Source of the DNA: an uncultured Candidatus Saccharibacteria bacterium
Lineage (GTDB): Bacteria > Patescibacteriota > Minisyncoccia > Phycocordibacterales > JAKAEA01
Direction: 5' to 3'
NCBI GenBank assembly: GCA_964577595.1
Contig: CAZNZK010000003.1
Span: 4,261 to 68,260 of the forward strand
Length of the DNA: 64,000 nucleotides
Positions 1 through 13,321 of this stretch are shown one piece after another; the first letter of the stretch is position 1, and each line of letters starts with the position of its first letter. The translations under genes and the position numbers were made by a program. The notes beneath the pieces are model-generated. The model saw only the letters and a list, made by a program, of their open reading frames with translations. It did no database searches and was not told the DNA's origin.

Positions 1-50
1 TCTCGTTAGGCTCATTCAAGGGAGGAATCCGCTGAAATAAAAAATAGATA

Positions 51-82
51 AAAATAAAATCACCTTTTGGTGATTTTATTTT
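51..82. terminator. Perfect 14-bp inverted repeat (aaaataaaatcacc/tttt/ggtgattttatttt), bidirectional terminator-like hairpin
   Basis: Perfect stem with A/T runs on both sides. Confidence 0.5.
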
Positions 83-331
83 ACTTCGAACCATTATCCG
101 CAAGGTGGACATGGTCATAGAAAGTTGGAACTCACTCCATCTGTGGGTTTTAGAGGCGTCTGAGGCGATTTTAGGGGTTCGGGAATTGAAAATAGCCTGA
201 TAAATCGGCGATAAAACCGGTCATCGGGGTCACAAGATGAGATTGGAATAATATCTAGTCTAGGTATAGACTGAACGTATCTTCAGAAGGAAAAGAAAAG
301 AATACTGTCCGGATAACAATTAAAATTATAA

Positions 332-589
332 ATGAATATTATGTTTGATTTTAGCAAGAAAATACAAAGACTAAGTAAGACAAAAATTCGAGCGGTCTCC
401 GATGTCGACCTTATTGTTGCGCTCGAAAAATTAAAACTTCTTGAAAAGATAAGTAAGGGTGAGATTAAGTGCATATACACGGGAGAGGTAATTACGTTAG
501 AAAACTTGCATGCAGTCATACCAACTGATGATGGGTTTAAATTTGTATCAGAAAACGCAGTAATTAGAGGGTTGGTCTCACCGGAATGA
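332..589 (+). CDS. hypothetical protein (85 aa), first gene of a two-gene island operon
   Basis: ORF whose stop overlaps the next start (ATGA at 586-589). No recognisable motif. Confidence 0.4.
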   Translation: MNIMFDFSKKIQRLSKTKIRAVSDVDLIVALEKLKLLEKISKGEIKCIYTGEVITLENLHAVIPTDDGFKFVSENAVIRGLVSPE

Positions 590-1665
590 TAAAAACCATC
601 TGGACATCACTGCATACTGTTTGGCATTTCTCTGAGCCTTATTTGGCTGCGCTGGCCGTATTGGGTGGGGCTTTGTATTTTCTCAGTCTGCTTATGGATG
701 TAGTGCCCAGACTTGCTTCGCTTAAGGCAAAATTTTTTGCTTGGTTTGCAAATACTTACAAGTATGAAGTATTCAAGCGTAAGGCCATAAGCAGTGATAT
801 TGAGGCTCTCGTCAATTCTATTGTTTTTAGTTTACAGGATGAATTGCCCAAGGGGTGGATAAAAAGAGCGTCGATTAAATGGGTAAGAGACATAACAAGA
901 AAAGACCAAGCGCCTCTGAATGAAATTATTTTAAGAATGAGGCCTATCGAAGACCAAAATACAAATCTGTTGTATAGCGTTCACGCTTTCTTCGGCGAGG
1001 CTTTGTTTCCTAAAATAGGCCATATTATTCCACTAAGTAAGAAAAACGCTGCCACGTTACTAATTACTCGACGAGCACTAGAAAGTCGAGGACCTTCTTT
1101 TAGGGACTTATTTGAGGAGCAATTATTAGAGAAAGCAATCCAGGAAAACTCTGATGTTCTAAGGGACTTTTCAAAATTCGAGAAATTAGACAATAAGGGA
1201 TTTTTCACTAGTGCATTGTTAAGAGAGGTGCATACCCTAACAAATCTGGCAAAATTTAATCCAATAAGAACCACTATCGATAATGAAATTAACTCGGTAA
1301 CAAAGCATATGCTGGACTTTTCGGGTGCACTTACTGGCCCTTCAGTTATTCCTGAGCCACTATGGTCCAGAAAAGGCCCGATAACAAATTACGCCTTTTT
1401 ATTGGTTGCAAGACCAGATAATAACGGCTCAAAAAATTATGTCCTGAGAGCAAAACAGAGATTTATAGAGGGTGTAACTAGACTCTATGTTCTCGCTAAG
1501 GAAGAGCAGCGTGATTTTGCTAAACAAGTAATAAAAGAGATAGGCAAATTGACTGAATGCAACCTTGAAGAAACATTTGAACTCAATAAAGACTACAGGT
1601 GTAATCAGGGTGGTCTGGGCGCAATCTTGACGGTAAGTCAGGGAGAACAACCCGCTACGAATTAA
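586..1665 (+). CDS. hypothetical protein (359 aa) with N-terminal transmembrane helix
   Basis: Long ORF translationally coupled to 332..589. N-terminal hydrophobic segment AALAVLGGALYFLSLL. No recognisable catalytic motif. Confidence 0.55.
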   Translation: MIKTIWTSLHTVWHFSEPYLAALAVLGGALYFLSLLMDVVPRLASLKAKFFAWFANTYKYEVFKRKAISSDIEALVNSIVFSLQDELPKGWIKRASIKWVRDITRKDQAPLNEIILRMRPIEDQNTNLLYSVHAFFGEALFPKIGHIIPLSKKNAATLLITRRALESRGPSFRDLFEEQLLEKAIQENSDVLRDFSKFEKLDNKGFFTSALLREVHTLTNLAKFNPIRTTIDNEINSVTKHMLDFSGALTGPSVIPEPLWSRKGPITNYAFLLVARPDNNGSKNYVLRAKQRFIEGVTRLYVLAKEEQRDFAKQVIKEIGKLTECNLEETFELNKDYRCNQGGLGAILTVSQGEQPATN

Positions 1666-2260
1666 AGGTTTTCCAAGCAATACGCACGTGTAGGATAAAT
1701 AAGACAGGGTTTGATACTGCATAACAGTATAAAAAGCAGTATAAGATTCACTTGTTAAACAGGCTAATAACAGGCGATAGCTCGCTGCTGAACAGTGTAA
1801 TAACAGCGTAAAGGCAACCGATTAAAACGGTGAATAATCGGTTAGGGAACGGTTTGAACTATCTTCCCAGCTAAACTAGCTAATAACTGGTGCTAAATAG
1901 CGAAATCGACAACGGAAAGGTTACCAAATAAATTGGTGGGTAATTGACTGAGGAACAGGCCAAGAACAGGCATCCGCTGCAACTGCTCATCAGTTAAATA
2001 ACAGTTAAAACCCGTGCCGCACACTTGAATTAAGGTCCTATTTGTGGGACTATTGGCTTACAACTAAATATGGAGAGTAGCCTAAACTAGCAAGCGATTG
2101 CTAGCATGGTGAAAAAGTCAGGACGTGCATAAAGAACCCATCATGGGGTCGCATGTCCTGCCACATCGGGAAACTGGTGTGAGTGGCTCCGGCTACTACC
2201 CGTGGTGGGCTTTTTGTAAGCTTGCTACGGGTATCTATAAGCTAAGTAGCTATAAATACC
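1666..2260. repeat. 600-bp non-coding region with repeated (A/T)AATAACAG / GAACAG motifs and several perfect hairpins; candidate origin/regulatory region or ncRNA
   Basis: No ORF of 60 aa or more on + strand. The 5-mer AACAG occurs 8 times; four copies sit in ...ATAACAG... context. Hairpins include aaccgatta/taatcggtt, ctagcaa/ttgctag and caggacgtgc/gcatgtcctg. A GC-rich stem plus T-run (..cccgtggtgggctttttgt) lies just before the next gene. Confidence 0.4.
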
Positions 2261-3094
2261 ATGTTCAATTTTTTTCATAGCGTTTTGTCTGCAGTGGGAA
2301 TGTTTATTATTTCTGTTGGCTTATTTTTTACAGGCTCTAGTGGGGTATCAAACAAAGTTGTTAATTTATCTGTTGTAAGCACTTCTACACAACAAATTGA
2401 GGTAGTTGCTACATCAAGTCAGAAAAGTGAAATTGGAGTTGATTCTTCTGTAAAAACTCCACCACAGCCTATCTCTAATACTATTTCAGTGCCACCACCA
2501 GTGGTTCCTAAAGAGACTCTAGTAAACTATCTACCTGCTTATCTAGGTTTTCTCAATTCGCAAAAAGATTTTTTTACTAAACAAAGAAGTATTCTAGACC
2601 CCTTAATCTCTGATGCACAAAGTAAATCAAATTCTTACGACATACAGGCAAGTTATTTTAGTGGGTTAACGGGCCAAGGACTTGCTGAACAGATATATCA
2701 AAGTTTTTCCAAATTAAGTAACGATACATCGCAATTATATATAGGTTCAATAGCGTCATTAAAAGCAAGACAGTCTCTAGACGATGATGTTATTAATACG
2801 ATTAATACTGAAGAAAACAATGATTCAGGATTGTTTTTATCGTCTGATGAATACACGACTAAATATAATTCAAGTAAAACTTATCTTAGTAATCAATACA
2901 ATCTAATTATGGGTGAGATAAGTGAAGCTGGAAATGCATATTTTGCACAAGATAAGGGGGCTAGAGATAACGAGGCTCAGCTACTCGGTCAATTACAGTC
3001 TTTGACCACAGCTCCTAGTCCGGTTTATTTACAACCGCCAACCCCGAAAATAACTATCTGTAACTTTTCAGGAAACGCTTTTATTTGCAACTAG
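2261..3094 (+). CDS. hypothetical membrane-anchored protein (277 aa), S/T/Q-rich
   Basis: ORF with an N-terminal TM segment (FIISVGLFFTG) followed by low-complexity Ser/Thr/Asn-rich sequence. Confidence 0.5.
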   Translation: MFNFFHSVLSAVGMFIISVGLFFTGSSGVSNKVVNLSVVSTSTQQIEVVATSSQKSEIGVDSSVKTPPQPISNTISVPPPVVPKETLVNYLPAYLGFLNSQKDFFTKQRSILDPLISDAQSKSNSYDIQASYFSGLTGQGLAEQIYQSFSKLSNDTSQLYIGSIASLKARQSLDDDVINTINTEENNDSGLFLSSDEYTTKYNSSKTYLSNQYNLIMGEISEAGNAYFAQDKGARDNEAQLLGQLQSLTTAPSPVYLQPPTPKITICNFSGNAFICN

Positions 3095-3107
3095 TTTTTT
3101 ACAAAAT

Positions 3108-3383
3108 ATGGGAGACTTAATTAAGGTGGGAATTGTTATTGTTTTAGCAAACTGGTTTAAAATATTAGTAGCAATATTACTTATTGTGGCGTGTGTTTAT
3201 TTGGCCAATATAAACAGTTCGCTAGGTGAATTAGACTATCAACTTATTCGGGTCGGAAATATGGCTAGCTACACTAGCGATAATACGTCTGGTATAGATG
3301 ATATCAAGTCAGATGTTTCCGATATAAAAGACAGCGTGTCTAATATAGAATATAGACTACAATATCCATCAATTCTTCGTTAG
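3108..3383 (+). CDS. hypothetical small membrane protein (91 aa)
   Basis: ORF with one strong TM helix (VGIVIVLANWFKILVAILLIVACVYL). Confidence 0.4.
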   Translation: MGDLIKVGIVIVLANWFKILVAILLIVACVYLANINSSLGELDYQLIRVGNMASYTSDNTSGIDDIKSDVSDIKDSVSNIEYRLQYPSILR

Positions 3384-3418
3384 TTGATTGAAAAAACCGT
3401 AAAAGAGAGTAAGTTTAG

Positions 3419-4168
3419 GTGACGGATATGGCACCTCTTGAACGCCTCAGTCCCAGCAATTTTTTTGCAGTCTGCGATGTTGCTATGGACATAAGAGAGA
3501 AACTACAAATGGTTATTGACAACACCGTTGTTATTCCCGTTATGCGGACAATCATAAGGGGTCAATTTAGTATTCTCCTACCCGCAAAAAGTGTAGAGCT
3601 AGTGGACAATTATTGTGAGCTACGATTGACCGCTATAAATTATATAAAGAGCCAAGGTTGTATTAAGGAAACGATACTACTTCGGTCTCATCAAAGATGG
3701 AGTGATAACATTAAAATAATTGTCGATAAGGACGCCTTTAATAAGTTCTATGACCAATTAATAAAGGTCTATGAAGTTAGGGTTGTTGAGCCAAATAAGA
3801 AACAAAAACAACAAGAACAAGGTGTTGTTTCTGGTCTGGAACAAAGTCCATTGCCCGTAATCTCCTACAATTCAATTACTGGTATGGGAATGACAAACAC
3901 AAAGAAATTTAAATTTAAAGACCCTAAACCTGAGTATAGGTTGTTCAAGCTACTCTTTGAGGGTTTAAACAAAAAAGTGTATCGTTATGATGTTTTAGTT
4001 GCAATTTGTTTTTATGAGGATGGTGAAGACCAAGACCCTGCTCGTCATGGTGCAGAAACTGAAAAAATCAATGATGTGGTCAAAAAAATAAGAGAAAAAA
4101 CTGGCTTAACCAGAACGCAGCTGGTAATTAATGGCGGCAATTTAACTTTGTTGGGTAGCAAACAATAA
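3419..4168 (+). CDS. hypothetical protein (249 aa), Lys-rich C-terminal half, possible DNA-binding/regulatory protein of the island
   Basis: ORF only. Basic C-terminal region (KKFKFKDPKPEYRLFKLLFEGLNKKVYRY). No confident domain assignment. Confidence 0.45.
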   Translation: MTDMAPLERLSPSNFFAVCDVAMDIREKLQMVIDNTVVIPVMRTIIRGQFSILLPAKSVELVDNYCELRLTAINYIKSQGCIKETILLRSHQRWSDNIKIIVDKDAFNKFYDQLIKVYEVRVVEPNKKQKQQEQGVVSGLEQSPLPVISYNSITGMGMTNTKKFKFKDPKPEYRLFKLLFEGLNKKVYRYDVLVAICFYEDGEDQDPARHGAETEKINDVVKKIREKTGLTRTQLVINGGNLTLLGSKQ

Positions 4169-4369
4169 ATCTACCAAAACTACCCCAAACTTACCCCAAA
4201 CCACCCCTAAATTTGATTGCTTGAGAAAGATAGGCTTAATCCAGCCTATTTTTTATTTGGTTAAATCTTGAACGTGATAAGTCTTTTGTTTACTTGGTGG
4301 GTTGTCCAACAGGGCGTTCAAGAACCTGCCAAGTGAAGAGTAGATTTATTAGTTAAGTCTATTTAATTT

Positions 4370-4591
4370 ATGGAAGGACAAATTACATGGAAAGCTGATG
4401 TGAAAAATTATCTTCTCATCACAATCAAGCTTGAGAATAGTGATAGTGGCAAGACGTATGTTGTCAAAGGATTTAAGAATGAGCCTCATTGGAGGCAACT
4501 CAAGATTGGAGACCGCATTGGTGGACTGGTTTGGTTTAACGAAAAGAAAAAAATCATCAGTGCCGATTCCCCAATCTATCCTCTAGATTGA
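4370..4591 (+). CDS. hypothetical protein (73 aa)
   Basis: ORF with a TGA stop that overlaps the next ORF. Confidence 0.35.
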   Translation: MEGQITWKADVKNYLLITIKLENSDSGKTYVVKGFKNEPHWRQLKIGDRIGGLVWFNEKKKIISADSPIYPLD

Positions 4592-4596
4592 TTTTT

Positions 4597-4833
4597 ATGT
4601 TGAGTATAGAAGAGTGTAAAAAGTATCTCGGTAATAATCTTACTGACAAGCAAATCGAAAATTTGCGAGGTGCTTTATATACTCTGGTCGAAAATATACT
4701 TGACGATTATTTTGCTCATTATGCTAGCATTGAGTCATGCAAAAATCTCTCATCTACTGCAGAGTCTCTTCTCAGCGTCAAAAAATTGAAGGACACGGTC
4801 TTGAAAGCCAGGAACACCGCTGTCAACAATTAG
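4597..4833 (+). CDS. hypothetical small protein, weak resemblance to phage gp6-like head-tail connector N-terminus; may be a remnant
   Basis: ATG at 4597 (MLSIEECKKYLGNNLTDKQIENLRGALYTLVENILDDYF). Overlaps the recombinase start by about 97 bp in another frame, so it may be degenerate. Confidence 0.25.
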   Translation: MLSIEECKKYLGNNLTDKQIENLRGALYTLVENILDDYFAHYASIESCKNLSSTAESLLSVKKLKDTVLKARNTAVNN

Positions 4834-6311
4834 CCGACCAGAAAGGTTACGAGGTAGAAAAAGTATTTAGAGATAGCTTCACTGGAAAAGGTGATTTCTT
4901 TGCCCGCCCAGCAATGGCTGAGCTATTGCGCTATCTCGATGCTCATCCTAGAGATTCCTACGTGGTTATTTTTGATGACTTGAAGCGGTTCGCCAGAGAT
5001 GTGGTCTTTCACTGGAAGCTAAAACAAGAATTTAGTTCCCGTGGCATCAAACTCGAATGTCTCAATTTTACCTTTGAAGATACGCCTGAGGGGAGATTCA
5101 TTGAAACAATTATGGCGGGGCAGGGGCAGCTTGAACGTGAACAAAACCGCAGACAGGTGCTGCAGAAAATGAAAGCGAGGTTGGAGGCGGGGTATTGGTG
5201 TTTTCCAGACTTGCCAGAAGGCTACGAGTTTATTAAAAGCCCTGTGCATGGCAAATTACCCGTTCTGGTGCAGCCTAAGGCGGCAATAGTGAAAGAGGCG
5301 CTTGAGAGTTTTGCCTCAGGGAGATTAATGGAGCAGGAGGATGTGCGAAAATTCCTAGAGCAAAAAGATATACGAGACGGTAAGCCCGTTTATCTTGATT
5401 ATGTAAAGAGGATGCTTATGAGAATCTTCTATACGGGCTATATCGAATACCCACTCTGGGAGGTGAGTAGGAGACAGGCTAGACACGAGGCCTTAATTGA
5501 TTCGGCAACATATGACCGCATTCAAGAGCGATTGAATGGCAAAACCACCACTCATACTAAAAATTATCTCAATCCTGATTTTCCACTACGCAGCTTTGTT
5601 CTTTGCTCGACATGTAAACAACCAATGACGGCAAGCTGGAGCACTGGTAGCAACGCCAAATTCGCTTATTACCGCTGTAAAACAAAAGGGTGCATAGAAC
5701 GGAACAAGAGTGTGGCTAAGGGGGTTATAGAGGGTGAGTTTGAGTCAATTCTAGGCAAAATAAATCCAAGCAGTGAAGTTCTGAATCTGACCAAAGCAAT
5801 TATTGCGGATGTGTGGCAGAAGAAAATTGCTAACCGTGTAAATGAGAAGAAAGAAATAGAGCAGAAGATTCAGAGATTGATTTCCGAAAAGGAAAAACTA
5901 GTTGGACTAGCTCTGAGGGCTGCTGACGACGGAGTGAGAATGGCATACGAAGAAAAAATATCGGAAATAGTCGGAATAAGCAGAGTTCTAAATAATTCTC
6001 TAGAGTCCTTTGATAGACATGTCCCAAACGTTGAAACCGCATTGAATATCGTATTCGACTTCTTAAAAAATCCTTTGAAACAATGGCAGAAGGGGAATAT
6101 CCATACCAAAAAGCTAGTTCTAAGACTAGTGTTTGAGCAGAATTTGGCATACAGCCGAAAAACTGGGTTTGAAACTGCTATTTTGTCGCTACCTCTAAGG
6201 GTATTTGGCCTCCCAGAGGCTCAAAAATCGATGCTAGTGGAGATGCGCGGAATCGAACCGCGGTGCAGGAGGGATTCAATGGATGATTCTACAGCGTGTA
6301 GCTGCCTTTGA
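4737..6311 (+). CDS. large serine recombinase / integrase
   Basis: N-terminal resolvase catalytic domain (MQKSLIYCRVSSQRQ..SLESQ). Recombinase domain present. Zinc-ribbon (CSTCKQPM...YYRCKTKGC) and coiled-coil C-terminus. The last about 25 codons are antisense of the tmRNA T-arm (..MRGIEPRC..), i.e. the ORF crosses the attachment junction. Confidence 0.9.
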   Translation: MQKSLIYCRVSSQRQKIEGHGLESQEHRCQQLADQKGYEVEKVFRDSFTGKGDFFARPAMAELLRYLDAHPRDSYVVIFDDLKRFARDVVFHWKLKQEFSSRGIKLECLNFTFEDTPEGRFIETIMAGQGQLEREQNRRQVLQKMKARLEAGYWCFPDLPEGYEFIKSPVHGKLPVLVQPKAAIVKEALESFASGRLMEQEDVRKFLEQKDIRDGKPVYLDYVKRMLMRIFYTGYIEYPLWEVSRRQARHEALIDSATYDRIQERLNGKTTTHTKNYLNPDFPLRSFVLCSTCKQPMTASWSTGSNAKFAYYRCKTKGCIERNKSVAKGVIEGEFESILGKINPSSEVLNLTKAIIADVWQKKIANRVNEKKEIEQKIQRLISEKEKLVGLALRAADDGVRMAYEEKISEIVGISRVLNNSLESFDRHVPNVETALNIVFDFLKNPLKQWQKGNIHTKKLVLRLVFEQNLAYSRKTGFETAILSLPLRVFGLPEAQKSMLVEMRGIEPRCRRDSMDDSTACSCL

Positions 6312-6650
6312 TCGGCGCATCACTTTTTGCAAAGTGGTACCCCATTTAAGCCTTACGGGTAAGAAAGAAGCAAAATTCCCGGAAGGCCGAGTCGCTTATT
6401 TCGGCAGGCGGCGCGACAGGCGCTTGCTATATTCCGAGTATGAGCATCGGGATGTGACTGATCGGACATCAATCACGCGATGTCGCTTAGGCCGTAGCGT
6501 AAGCGAATGCAGGGATCCCCTTAAAATAAGGAGAAGCTACTGCACCAAGTGCGTTTTTGGCACTTAAAAGGTTTGTGGCAGATTAAGGAGTTACCACAGC
6601 TCCACGTCGCTCATCCAAAGAGCAAACTCCTGTCTAGGCCGATCATCCCC
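6238..6650 (-). ncRNA. ssrA: tmRNA (ssrA)
   Basis: On the minus strand: 5' GGGGATGATCGGCCTAGACAGG... and 3' ...CGCGGTTCGATTCCGCGCATCTCCA (T-arm plus acceptor strand pairing with 5' GGGGATG). CCA is not encoded; the next bases are CTA. Adjacent to smpB. A candidate tag frame ends ...AFAYATA-TAA, but this is uncertain without a covariance model. Confidence 0.75.
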
Positions 6651-6788: not shown

Positions 6789-7250
6789 CTACCTATCGCT
6801 AAATTCGCGGCGAATATTTCGCTCGGTGTCGCGCTTTTTGGTGGCTTGGCGCTTATCAAATTGTTTCTTGCCACGCGCCAAGGCGATATCCATCTTCAAC
6901 TTCCGGCCTTTATTATACACTGAAATAGGTACGATTGTCAACCCTTTTTGAGAGCCACTGCCAACGCCGGCCAGGCGCTTGAGTTCGGCTTGCGTAAGCA
7001 GAAGCTTGCGAGCGCGGTCACTACCAGCGTCGCTATTGCCGCCAGCAATATTGCCGGGTTGGTAGACCGGAATATCCATTTTTTCCAGCCAGGCTTCACC
7101 AGCGCGCAGGAGTACGTAGGCACCATCTAGGGAGCCGCGGCCAGCTCGGAGGGATTTTACTTCCGCACCCAAGAGTTCTATCCCAGCCTCAAAATGCTCC
7201 ACGAATTCGTAGTTGAAGCTCGCTTTGCGGTTGAAAATAAGGCTAGCCAT
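6789..7250 (-). CDS. smpB: SsrA-binding protein SmpB
   Basis: Translation MASLIFNRKASFNYEFVEHFEAGIELLGAEVKSLRAG... matches the SmpB family. Adjacent to tmRNA. Confidence 0.9.
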   Translation of the reverse strand: MASLIFNRKASFNYEFVEHFEAGIELLGAEVKSLRAGRGSLDGAYVLLRAGEAWLEKMDIPVYQPGNIAGGNSDAGSDRARKLLLTQAELKRLAGVGSGSQKGLTIVPISVYNKGRKLKMDIALARGKKQFDKRQATKKRDTERNIRREFSDR

Positions 7251-13233: not shown

Positions 13234-13247
13234 GATTTATATTAGTG

Positions 13248-13321
13248 TCCACCCCCTTGGAGTCGAACCAAGGACCGCCGAGGTATAAGCTCGGTGCTCT
13301 AACCAACTGAGCTAGGGGTGG
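13248..13321 (-). tRNA. tRNA-Ile with anticodon UAU (reads AUA)
   Basis: Hand-folded cloverleaf. Acceptor CCACCCC/GGGGTGG. D-arm GCTCAGTTGGTTAGAGC. Anticodon stem CCGAG/CTCGG with loop CTTATAC (anticodon TAT). T-arm CTTGG-TTCGACT-CCAAG. Discriminator A. CCA not encoded. Confidence 0.7.

What the first reader, a model, noticed from the sequence alone, without database searches (positions are those of the whole stretch)
1..6650. AT-rich integrative element with large serine recombinase inserted into the 3' end of tmRNA (ssrA)
Positions 1-6311 are visibly AT-richer than the rest of the window. The block carries co-oriented genes of unknown function. It ends with a large serine recombinase whose last about 25 codons are the antisense of the ssrA T-arm, so the ORF crosses the attachment junction. 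The tmRNA 3' end has no encoded CCA; CTA follows the discriminator. This suggests the 3' terminus is reconstituted by element DNA. A short ORF just upstream of the recombinase faintly resembles a phage head-tail connector N-terminus (prophage remnant?). The other junction is not in the window. tmRNA-targeted islands are known, but this cargo is entirely uncharacterised.
Basis: partly seen in the sequence, partly recalled or inferred. Interest (0 to 1): 0.6.

Follow-up and report, generated by a model that had tools for sequence, protein, structure and literature searches.

The report
Serine-integrase element splitting its own gene
A 6.1-kb mobile element sits at the very end of the tmRNA gene of a Patescibacteria bacterium. 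It was inserted by a serine integrase whose own gene contains the attachment site, so each insertion swaps the enzyme's last ~30 amino acids; this arrangement recurs across a large family that targets tmRNA and tRNA genes.

Summary
Window 105-6241 is a 6,132-bp AT-rich element (GC 39.2% vs 48.9%) that ends with an intact large serine recombinase (LSR, 4737-6311). Its last 75 nt are antisense to the 3' end of ssrA.

Three points need correcting:
- The second junction is inside the window, at 105-109.
- No ssrA direct repeat exists. attL and attR share only GTGGA, which corresponds to tmRNA ...UCC, the discriminator A and the first C of CCA.
- The T-arm is host DNA. The element replaces only the trailer, and the native ssrA terminator now lies at 51-82.

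The main result is that attP lies inside the integrase ORF. Integration detaches the last 30 codons (now at 105-200) and fuses the ORF to antisense tmRNA. The detached tail matches the C-termini of homologues on circular 4.2-7.6-kb contigs, and it sits at the far end of nine other integrated elements. Its distal part is under purifying selection (pN/pS 0.32).

Among the 120 closest homologues, about 70 end in antisense tmRNA and at least 16 in antisense tRNA. The attP arm carries TGGAAC 5 bp further out than TCGAAC (T-loop) in attB, which is the canonical LSR geometry.

Whether the tail swap controls directionality is inference. The cargo is uncharacterised and includes a LOOT RNA. No phage genes were found.

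The parts
51..82 (-). Native rho-independent terminator of ssrA, now separated from ssrA by the 6.1-kb insertion
   Evidence: Terminator scan: 14-bp stem followed by a U-run on the - strand. It lies 22 nt beyond the attL core. Equivalent hairpins abut attL in L006, L095, L106, L091 and L112.
105..109 (.). attL core GTGGA (left junction; B arm to its left, P' arm to its right)
   Evidence: This is the only sequence shared with attR in this element, and the minimal core shared by the six other tmRNA-targeting elements in which both junctions were compared.
105..200 (+). Displaced 3' end of the integrase ORF (VDMVIESWNSLHLWVLEASEAILGVRELKIA*). It also forms the P' arm of attP, with TGGAAC at 126-131.
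   Evidence: hmmsearch with a profile of free-form tails gives E = 9.4e-16. It aligns without gaps to the C-termini of 12 homologues. Distal codons show pN/pS 0.32.
332..589 (+). Cargo ORF, 85 aa, unknown function
   Evidence: ORF list; called as a gene in public contigs; no significant family match.
586..1665 (+). Cargo ORF, 359 aa, with an N-terminal hydrophobic stretch that reads as a transmembrane segment. It belongs to an uncharacterised family whose relatives are fused to RNA-binding domains.
   Evidence: 390 representatives at E<=1e-3 among 1.84 billion proteins. Longer relatives carry C-terminal OST-HTH/LOTUS, S1 or KH domains. No PDB or PADLOC match.
2079..2197 (+). LOOT RNA (Rfam RF03000), followed by a hairpin and U-run at 2196-2218
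   Evidence: Rfam 81.4 bits against a gathering score of 46.4, full-length. Also present in L006, L011, L092, L093, L095 and L104, plus an L106 copy that lies outside the mapped element. Its context is conserved.
2261..3094 (+). Cargo ORF, 277 aa, with an N-terminal hydrophobic segment that reads as a membrane or secreted protein; immediately downstream of LOOT
   Evidence: no family match.
3108..3383 (+). Cargo ORF, 91 aa, with one hydrophobic stretch that reads as a transmembrane helix
   Evidence: no family match.
3419..4168 (+). Cargo ORF, 249 aa (246 aa as called publicly), unknown function, followed by a terminator-like hairpin at 4225-4254
   Evidence: no family match.
4370..4591 (+). 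o73: small protein conserved next to the integrase; candidate accessory or directionality factor
   Evidence: tblastn: 67% identity in circular L167, 33-37% in L169, L168 and L086.
4588..4833 (+). o81: small helical protein. Its conserved N-terminal ~55 aa lie upstream of int and its 3' end overlaps the int start. Candidate directionality factor or regulator.
   Evidence: Conserved in L167, L169, L086, L168, L087 and L011. AF2 predicts helices. No PDB or Pfam homologue.
4737..6311 (+). Large serine recombinase, integrated form (524 aa). Residues 1-501 are element-encoded. The last 23 residues (from E in LVEM) are encoded by antisense ssrA.
6237..6241 (.). attR core GTGGA (right junction; P arm to its left inside int, B' arm = tmRNA 3' end to its right)
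6237..6650 (-). ssrA (tmRNA), intact up to the discriminator and first C; tag AKNALGAVASPYFKGIPAFAYATA
   Evidence: ARAGORN; Rfam RF00023 at 88.2 bits, model positions 1-374.
6789..7250 (-). smpB (host gene, upstream partner of ssrA)
   Evidence: Pfam SmpB 2.1e-45; smpB-ssrA synteny in more than 30 Patescibacteria loci.

Best explanation
Window 105-6241 is a 6,132-bp integrative element in a Patescibacteria (Paceibacteria-like) chromosome.

Shown:
- A large serine recombinase (LSR) recombined an attP that lies inside the 3' end of its own ORF with an attB at the extreme 3' end of ssrA.
- The crossover falls within the 5-bp core GTGGA. This core is the reverse complement of tmRNA ...UCC, the discriminator A and the first C of CCA.
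- The tmRNA gene therefore stays intact up to its mature end. Only its trailer and terminator are displaced, to window 1-104.
- The recombinase ORF loses its last 30 codons, which remain intact at window 105-200. The ORF instead runs 23 codons further into antisense ssrA.
- Excision would rebuild a 531-aa protein that ends in a short linker and an amphipathic helix.
- The same split architecture recurs in a large clade of LSRs (35-73% identity) that target tmRNA or tRNA-Ile, -Leu, -Ala and -Thr genes at the same sublocation. Circular 4.2-7.6-kb forms carrying the contiguous ORF exist.
- The inner ~9 bp of the P' arm resemble the B' arm. The P' arm carries TGGAAC 5 bp further from the core than TCGAAC (the T-loop) in B', as the LSR zinc-ribbon-domain model requires.

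Inferred:
- The C-terminal helix is a functional part of the free-form enzyme. Removing it on integration would alter the enzyme's activity or directionality, or its interaction with a directionality factor. The candidates for that factor are the conserved small proteins o73 and o81.
- ssrA transcription, now lacking its terminator, would read antisense into int and damp its expression in the integrated state.
- The cargo (membrane proteins, a LOOT RNA and an RNA-associated 359-aa protein) has unknown function.
For: Boundaries and core:
- The GC step coincides with the element ends.
- attL and attR share GTGGA.
- The host terminator lies immediately left of attL.
- A related genome, L005 (SmpB 80% identical), has an uninterrupted ssrA with an encoded CCA and no recombinase.

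The enzyme is an LSR.

The tail:
- The left-end ORF fragment matches the free-form tail profile at E = 9.4e-16. The same holds at the far end of L011, L109, L006, L095, L093, L106, L091 and L112.
- The reconstructed C-terminus aligns with 12 homologues.
- Circular contigs L105 (127-nt terminal overlap), L167 (77 nt) and L169 (30 nt) carry int with a contiguous tail and no t(m)RNA gene.
- The 14 distal tail codons have pS 0.62 and pN 0.20.

Family-wide targeting:
- tmRNA or tRNA genes overlap the ORF end in 17 metagenome loci plus L006 and L011.
- Among the 120 best homologues, about 70 have antisense-tmRNA tails, at least 16 antisense-tRNA tails and 15 free tails.

The 5-bp shift:
- TGGAAC sits at core+21 in 12 of 12 P' arms. 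In the window's B' arm, TCGAAC sits at core+16.
- This fits the shift documented by Rutherford et al. 2013 (PMC3783163).

Precedents for a role of the C-terminus:
- The extreme C-terminus of the SPbeta integrase (F532) contacts the directionality factor and affects directionality (PMC11722253, citing Abe 2021).
- The AF2 model gives a disordered linker (491-505, pLDDT<50) followed by helix 511-530.
Against: - No excision product or empty site of this particular element was found. All public contigs carrying these proteins show the integrated state, and the reconstructed attP is absent from IMG/VR.
- The tail helix is predicted with only modest confidence (pLDDT about 50-70), and its contacts could not be inspected.
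- Part of the tail's conservation (S-W-N = TGGAAC) can be explained by the att site at the DNA level.
- The integrated form keeps every recognised LSR domain, so the swap may have little functional effect.
- The B arm (ssrA trailer) is not conserved between hosts, which is unusual for an LSR attB half-site.
- One circular relative, L086, has an unexplained ~200-nt insert between the core and the tail.
Confidence: 0.85

Rival explanations
1. The element uses a tyrosine-integrase-like strategy: it carries its own copy of the ssrA 3' segment (T-arm and acceptor) that replaces the host's, and the displaced host fragment forms a direct repeat at a far junction outside the window.
For: The ORF overlaps 75 nt of ssrA. 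The T-stem differs from that of L005 by a compensatory pair.
Against: No repeat of the ssrA 3' segment occurs in the 1.5 kb to the left. The far junction is at 105-109, with only GTGGA shared. The host terminator abuts it. The enzyme is a serine recombinase, which needs no long identity. The displaced sequence at the far end is the integrase tail, not a tmRNA fragment.
Confidence: 0.03
2. The architecture is real but the tail swap is functionally neutral. attP overlaps the 3' end of int only because the genome is compact. The tail is dispensable, and its conservation reflects the DNA requirements of the P' arm.
For: All known LSR domains lie upstream of the crossover. The integrated-form tails vary in length and sequence. 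TGGAAC in the tail is an att motif. The tail has low-to-moderate pLDDT.
Against: Conservation extends 32-73 bp beyond the core, past a normal half-site, with synonymous change far exceeding non-synonymous change (pN/pS 0.32). The amphipathic pattern is kept across homologues of 35-70% identity. The displaced tail stays open and intact in all nine integrated elements examined. There is a precedent for an LSR extreme C-terminus acting in directionality.
Confidence: 0.3
3. The copy in this window is an immobile, fixed remnant (domesticated or decaying) and no longer an active mobile element.
For: Every public contig with these exact proteins shows the integrated state, in three independent samples. 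No attP form was found.
Against: The integrase is full-length and retains the conserved YCRVSS serine motif and zinc-ribbon cysteines. Both att cores, the displaced tail and the o73-o81-int module are intact. GC remains 10 points below the host. The closest free-form relative (69% identity) is on a circular contig.
Confidence: 0.15
4. The element is a small temperate virus or a phage satellite that relies on a helper for packaging, rather than a plasmid-like integrative element.
For: It is small (4-8 kb) and exists in circular and integrated forms. It encodes several small proteins with hydrophobic stretches that read as membrane segments, which could be virion components of a membrane-containing virus. 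One distant relative, L165, is in IMG/VR.
Against: No capsid, terminase, portal, Zot-like or replication-initiator family is detected with Pfam, PHROGs or NCBIfam. The cargo is not conserved between elements apart from o73, o81 and int.
Confidence: 0.15

Closest known systems
Large serine recombinases / serine integrases of phages and mobile elements (SPbeta SprA, Bxb1, PhiC31, A118/LI)
   Same: Same domain set: Resolvase catalytic domain, recombinase domain and zinc ribbon with an embedded coiled coil. Full-length fold match. Short att sites with a tiny common core. The ZD-type motif lies 5 bp further out in attP than in attB.
   Different: The target is the mature 3' end of tmRNA or tRNA genes. 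In 2020 use of a t(m)RNA gene by a serine integrase was said not to have been reported, with only 14 of 297 predicted cases (PMC7192596). attP lies inside the integrase ORF, so integration exchanges the C-terminal ~30 residues. I found no description of this for any LSR in the searches I could run.
'Suicidal' SSV1/pTN3/pT26-2-type archaeal tyrosine integrases (attP within the int gene)
   Same: The recombination site lies within the recombinase's own gene. Integration splits the gene into two pieces at opposite ends of the element, and excision restores it. Targets are tRNA genes (PMC8371274).
   Different: Those are tyrosine recombinases, reported only in Archaea. They split near the 5' end into two inactive fragments. 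Here the enzyme is a bacterial serine recombinase, only the last 6% of the ORF is detached, and the remaining ORF stays open and keeps all catalytic and DNA-binding domains.
tRNA/tmRNA-targeting genomic islands (Islander/TIGER type; Williams 2002 sublocation classes)
   Same: Integration at the 3' end of a t(m)RNA gene with the int gene adjacent to the junction and the target gene preserved.
   Different: There is no displaced t(m)RNA fragment and no direct repeat (5-bp core only), and the integrase is of the serine family. Islander-type detection, which relies on the displaced fragment, would miss these elements.
Integration-dependent switches of mycobacteriophages (attP inside the repressor gene; my own recollection of Broussard et al. 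2013, not checked here)
   Same: Integration changes the C-terminus of a phage-encoded protein because attP lies inside its ORF, giving different protein forms in the free and integrated states.
   Different: In those phages the affected gene is the repressor and the integrase is a tyrosine recombinase. Here the integrase itself is modified.
LOOT RNA motif (Rfam RF03000)
   Same: The window 2079-2197 sequence matches the whole model well above the gathering score.
   Different: Rfam classes LOOT as an sRNA gene. I could not retrieve any published genomic context for it. Here it is cargo of LSR elements, always upstream of a gene whose product has an N-terminal hydrophobic segment.

Membership tests
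Large serine recombinase (serine integrase) | N-terminal resolvase-type catalytic domain with a nucleophilic serine | tested here: met
   Pfam PF00239 at 2.9e-25, residues 6-153. The motif IYCRVSSQRQ is present, and R9, S11 and S12 are nearly invariant in the family alignment.
Large serine recombinase (serine integrase) | C-terminal recombinase domain plus zinc-ribbon domain with an embedded coiled coil | tested here: met
   PF07508 at 3.7e-06. PF13408 at 2.1e-05, scoring 25.2 bits, marginally below its 25.3 curated cut-off. Four invariant Cys residues (C290, C293, C314, C319). AF2 helices 346-394 and 398-427. Foldseek matches to 9dxh (5e-18), 9iu2 and 4kis.
Large serine recombinase (serine integrase) | Short att sites with minimal identity; the attP half-site carries the ZD motif 5 bp further from the centre than attB | tested here: met
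   The common core is only GTGGA. TGGAAC lies at core+21 in 12 of 12 P' arms, against TCGAAC at core+16 in the window's B' arm. The rule is from PMC3783163. This rests on sequence only; binding was not tested.
Large serine recombinase (serine integrase) | Catalyses attP x attB alone and needs a directionality factor for attL x attR | not testable with these tools
tRNA/tmRNA-gene genomic island (Islander type) | Inserted in a t(m)RNA gene, with the integrase gene next to the junction and the target gene preserved | tested here: met
   The tmRNA is intact through the discriminator and first C.
tRNA/tmRNA-gene genomic island (Islander type) | A displaced fragment of the t(m)RNA gene forms a direct repeat at the far end | tested here: not met
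   The best local alignment between the junction region and the 1.1 kb around the left end is 11 nt, and it is unrelated to the junction. Only the 5-bp core is shared.
tRNA/tmRNA-gene genomic island (Islander type) | Tyrosine-family integrase | tested here: not met
   The only recombinase in the element is of the serine family.
'Suicidal' (SSV-type) integrases | attP located within the integrase's own ORF, so the gene is split on integration | tested here: met
   The contiguous ORF is seen on circular contigs.
'Suicidal' (SSV-type) integrases | [quoted passage not shown] | tested here: not met
   The enzyme is a serine recombinase in a bacterial (Patescibacteria) host. The larger fragment retains all domains. 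Its activity is unknown.
Prophage / prophage remnant | Genes for capsid, portal, terminase, tail or phage replication | tested here: not met
   No such hit in Pfam, PHROGs or NCBIfam for any of the seven cargo ORFs. The 'head-tail connector' resemblance of o81 is not significant.
LOOT RNA (RF03000) | Covariance-model score above the curated gathering threshold over the full model | tested here: met
   81.4 bits against 46.4, model positions 1-121.

The most novel reading that the evidence does not exclude
The C-terminal tail swap is a built-in state sensor and directionality toggle. The linker-plus-amphipathic-helix tail is present only when the element is excised. It would act in cis on the zinc-ribbon/coiled-coil hinge, the surface that RDFs and the SprA extreme C-terminus use. 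The free-form enzyme would then be committed to integration, and the prophage-form enzyme, with the helix replaced by antisense-tmRNA-encoded residues, would have different directionality or RDF dependence. If so, this would be the first self-splitting recombinase gene outside Archaea and outside the tyrosine family. It would also define a large clade of serine integrases whose natural attB is the universally conserved 3' end of tmRNA and tRNA genes.
Probability: 0.35. Interest if true: 0.85.

Novelty: new variant of a known kind. Interest (0 to 1): 0.72.

Why it matters
1. t(m)RNA genes have been regarded as targets of tyrosine integrases. A 2020 survey stated that serine-integrase use of a t(m)RNA gene had not been reported and needed proof (PMC7192596). 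Here a whole clade of serine integrases in Patescibacteria does this systematically, at one precise sublocation.

2. A recombinase whose attachment site lies in its own ORF was said to exist only in archaeal tyrosine integrases (PMC8371274). This is a bacterial, serine-family counterpart. It leaves the enzyme largely intact but with a different C-terminus in each state, which makes a directionality mechanism directly testable.

3. These elements leave no t(m)RNA direct repeat, so tools that rely on a displaced t(m)RNA gene fragment (Islander-type) will miss them. Public gene calls treat the chimeric ORFs as ordinary proteins.

4. Serine integrases are genome-engineering tools. Enzymes whose attB half-site is the conserved acceptor and T-arm of tmRNA or tRNA could offer landing sites already present in many bacteria.

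5. The work gives the orphan LOOT RNA a genomic home.

Tried and rejected
- Direct repeat: I looked for a repeat of the ssrA 3' end in the 1.5 kb upstream (L001) and found none. I rejected this as a criterion once the enzyme class was clear.
- Empty site and excised form: exact-protein look-ups of SmpB, Int and o359 gave only integrated copies. The reconstructed attP was not found in IMG/VR.
- Cargo annotation: Pfam, PHROGs, NCBIfam and PADLOC scans of the cargo ORFs gave nothing significant.
- o81: the protein search found one homologue. The profile against PDB gave nothing. AF2 with two sequences gave plain helices, and Foldseek gave nothing.
- o359: the profile against PDB gave nothing.
- LOOT literature: the main text of the discovery paper does not mention it, and no supplements are held.
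- B arm: I considered whether the TCGAACC in the window's B arm marks a decayed tmRNA fragment. It is not seen in other hosts' B arms, so I treat it as chance.
- L086: its ~200-nt insert in attP remains unexplained.
- Tail contacts: I could not inspect AF2 coordinates to see where the tail docks, because no model file is exposed.

Full report
**Observation**

The left part of the window is AT-rich. GC is 0.36-0.39 per kb up to 5 kb, against about 0.49 afterwards. With the boundaries derived below (105-6241), the element has GC 0.392 and the remaining 57.8 kb has 0.489. None of 207 equal-length windows elsewhere drops below 0.458.

- ARAGORN and Rfam place a full-length tmRNA at 6237-6650 on the minus strand. 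smpB lies just upstream at 6789-7250.
- The ORF at 4737-6311 (+) has Resolvase, Recombinase and zinc-ribbon domains.
- Its AF2 model (mean pLDDT 80) matches the SPbeta, Bxb1, PhiC31 and LI integrases over its full length. It is a large serine recombinase (LSR).
- Its last 75 nt, 25 codons, are antisense to the tmRNA 3' end.
- The tmRNA ends ...CAUCUCC-A-C and is followed by TAG.

**Finding the other junction**

An 8.9-kb public contig (L001) is identical to the window apart from 2 mismatches, and extends 1,495 nt further left. No copy of the ssrA 3' segment occurs there. That is expected for a serine recombinase.

The C-termini of the 120 closest homologues (48-100% identical) fall into three kinds:
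- About 70 end in ...LVEMxGIEPxC..., which is antisense tmRNA.
- At least 16 end in ...VDPTGLEPATPSLQMRCSTR, which is antisense tRNA.
- 15 end in a conserved ...LVDxxxxSWNQLxSWxFEASEAIL... tail.

The plus strand at window 105-200 encodes VDMVIESWNSLHLWVLEASEAILGVRELKIA*. This is the third kind of tail. A profile of free-form tails finds it at E = 9.4e-16.

The sequence around it, CCGCAAG-GTGGA-CATGGTC, shares only GTGGA with the right junction, ATGCTA-GTGGA-GATGCGC. The cores therefore lie at 105-109 (attL) and 6237-6241 (attR), and the element is 6,132 bp. The second junction is inside the window.

Immediately left of attL lies a strong terminator on the minus strand (51-82). This is the native ssrA terminator, now displaced.

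**What integration did**

GTGGA is the reverse complement of tmRNA UCC (end of the acceptor stem), the discriminator A and the first C of CCA.

- The whole tRNA-like domain, including the T-arm, is host DNA. Only the trailer is replaced.
- The reconstructed native gene ends ...CAUCUCCACC-U. The integrated gene ends ...CAUCUCCAC-U.
- Five of the eight tRNA genes in the window also lack an encoded CCA. The cell must therefore add CCA enzymatically, and losing one encoded C is harmless.
- The closest available relative, L005 (SmpB 80% identical), has an uninterrupted ssrA ending in CCA, followed directly by infC, with no recombinase.

**attP is inside the integrase ORF**

Joining the right end to the left end restores a 531-aa ORF. 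Its C-terminus aligns without gaps to 12 free-form homologues.

The architecture is general:
- In 17 metagenome loci, plus L006 and L011 from reference genomes, a homologous LSR (35-73% identical) has its ORF end overlapping the 3' end of a tmRNA or a tRNA-Ile, -Leu, -Ala or -Thr gene on the opposite strand.
- In nine integrated elements, including the window's own copy on L001, the displaced tail lies 4.1-10.7 kb away at the other end, directly after a host terminator.
- Contigs L105 (7.6 kb), L167 (4.2 kb; Int 69% identical to the window's) and L169 (5.0 kb) have terminal overlaps of 127, 77 and 30 nt. They carry int with the contiguous tail and contain no t(m)RNA gene. These are the circular forms.
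- The minimal core shared by all tmRNA-targeting pairs is GTGGA. The tRNA-Ile-targeting L093 uses the equivalent position (TGTCC).

**Fit to the serine-integrase paradigm**

- The inner 9-10 bp of the P' arm resemble the B' arm. GTGGAGATGG is identical in L006, and GTGGAGATG is identical in L109.
- The P' arm carries TGGAAC at core+21 in 12 of 12 elements. In the window's B' arm, the tmRNA T-loop read on the other strand carries TCGAAC at core+16.
- A 5-bp inward shift of the zinc-ribbon-domain motif in attB relative to attP is the feature that distinguishes the two sites (Rutherford et al. 2013, PMC3783163).
- This assignment rests on sequence alone.
- The B arm (ssrA trailer) is not conserved between hosts.

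**Is the tail a functional protein segment?**

Evidence that it is:
- The S-W-N codons coincide with the att motif. Conservation nevertheless continues for another ~15 codons, 32-73 bp from the core and beyond a normal half-site.
- In that stretch, five related elements show pS 0.62 against pN 0.20, a ratio of 0.32.
- The hydrophobic periodicity is kept across the family.
- The displaced tail is open and intact in every integrated copy.
- AF2 predicts a disordered linker across the crossover (491-505, pLDDT<50), followed by a helix at 511-530 with modest confidence.

By contrast, the integrated-form tails are whatever antisense t(m)RNA encodes, and they vary in length.

Precedents:
- The extreme C-terminus of the SPbeta integrase SprA participates in directionality control and contacts the RDF (PMC11722253, citing Abe et al. 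2021).
- Fusing an RDF to an integrase C-terminus through a flexible linker is functional.

I therefore infer, at roughly one chance in three, that the swap changes activity, directionality or RDF dependence. It may equally be neutral. This step is not shown.

**Other parts of the element**

Only three genes are conserved between elements: int, o81 (4588-4833) and o73 (4370-4591).
- o81 has a conserved N-terminal ~55 aa, and its 3' end overlaps the int start. It is helical and has no detectable homologue in PDB or Pfam.
- Because of their position and conservation, o73 and o81 are the candidates for a directionality factor. This is inference.

The rest of the cargo is variable and has no match in Pfam, PHROGs, NCBIfam or PADLOC. 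There is no evidence for a prophage.
- The 359-aa protein belongs to a family of at least 390 representatives. Longer members are fused to OST-HTH/LOTUS, S1 or KH domains, which points to an RNA-related role.
- A LOOT RNA (RF03000) lies at 2079-2197. It recurs in seven other LSR loci. It is always followed by a hairpin and U-run, and then by a gene whose product has an N-terminal hydrophobic segment.

After integration, no terminator-like signal follows ssrA on the minus strand for about 850 nt. ssrA transcription probably reads antisense into int. This is inference.

**Comparison with what is known**

- The enzyme is a member of the LSR family; all sequence-testable features are met.
- The element works like a t(m)RNA-targeting island but fails two defining features of that class: it has no displaced gene fragment and no tyrosine integrase.
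- Mageeney et al. 2020 wrote that use of a t(m)RNA gene by a serine integrase had not been reported, and found only 14 of 297 candidates.
- The closest analogue of the split gene is the archaeal 'suicidal' SSV-type tyrosine integrase, which a 2021 review describes as exclusive to Archaea. Here the family and domain of life differ, and only the last 6% of the ORF is detached.
- My literature searches found no description of this architecture or of this clade. The library is incomplete, so prior description cannot be excluded.

**Verdict**

The finding is real and more interesting than stated. It is a new variant of a known kind: a serine-integrase integrative element with an unusual target (the mature 3' end of tmRNA and tRNA genes) and an attP embedded in the integrase ORF. 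It belongs to a widespread Patescibacteria family. The anatomy is well supported (confidence about 0.85). The functional meaning of the tail swap, the identity of the directionality factor and the role of the cargo remain open.

Noticed in passing
window 2079-2197 (+); also L006 5777-5896, L011 10839-10950, L092 455-573, L093 7397-7521, L095 3338-3453, L104 2228-2344, L106 16881-17002: The LOOT RNA (Rfam RF03000) is recurrent cargo of these serine-integrase elements. It is always preceded by an ACAATTTAA-like box. It is followed by a hairpin and U-run, and then within 40-60 nt by a gene whose product has an N-terminal hydrophobic segment. Its orientation relative to int varies. The L106 copy lies outside the mapped element.
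   Followed up: partly
window 586-1665 (+): The 359-aa cargo protein belongs to an uncharacterised family of at least 390 representatives. Longer members carry C-terminal OST-HTH/LOTUS, S1 or KH RNA-binding domains, suggesting an RNA-directed function. It has no PDB, Pfam or PADLOC match.
   Followed up: partly
L086 4880-5092 joined to 1-200 (circular contig, 94-nt terminal overlap): In this circular relative the integrase body and its tail are separated by a ~200-nt insert and lie in different frames. The insert is bounded by inverted copies of a tmRNA-3'-end-like sequence (GTGGAGATGGCGGGAGTTG ... CAACTCCCG..CCATCTCCAC) and followed by a terminator. It may be a captured host fragment, a palindromic insertion in attP or an assembly artefact. 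Unexplained.
   Followed up: partly
window 6283-6567 (+): A 94-aa ORF called as a gene on the public contigs (L001 7778-8062) is entirely antisense to the tmRNA gene and is almost certainly spurious. The chimeric integrase ORFs are likewise stored in public protein sets with their antisense-t(m)RNA tails.
   Followed up: yes
window 6912-6941 (-): A perfect sigma-70 consensus (TTGACA, 18 nt, TATAAT; 12 of 12) lies inside the 3' part of smpB, 262 nt upstream of the tmRNA 5' end. It could be an ssrA promoter.
   Followed up: no
window 13247-13321 (-); many loci: A tRNA-Ile gene with anticodon TAT lies near smpB-ssrA in this genome and in most related Patescibacteria loci. This is a conserved neighbourhood.
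   Followed up: no
L023 10517-12462: A distant serine recombinase (about 20% identical) ends 174 nt from the 3' end of a tmRNA gene in convergent orientation. It may be a second, independent tmRNA-associated LSR lineage whose attP lies outside the ORF.
   Followed up: no
window 84-91 (B arm, left of attL): The native ssrA trailer contains TTCGAACC, a T-loop-like palindrome-containing motif, 14-20 nt from the core. It is not present in the B arms of other hosts, so I treat it as chance.
   Followed up: partly
L001 29-1057 (outside the window, left flank): A 342-aa Thr/Gly/Asn/Val-rich repetitive ORF with Cys-rich ends lies upstream of a DUF6496 gene and a 50-aa ORF with hydrophobic stretches that reads as a membrane protein. 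This is host flank, at about 55% GC.
   Followed up: no
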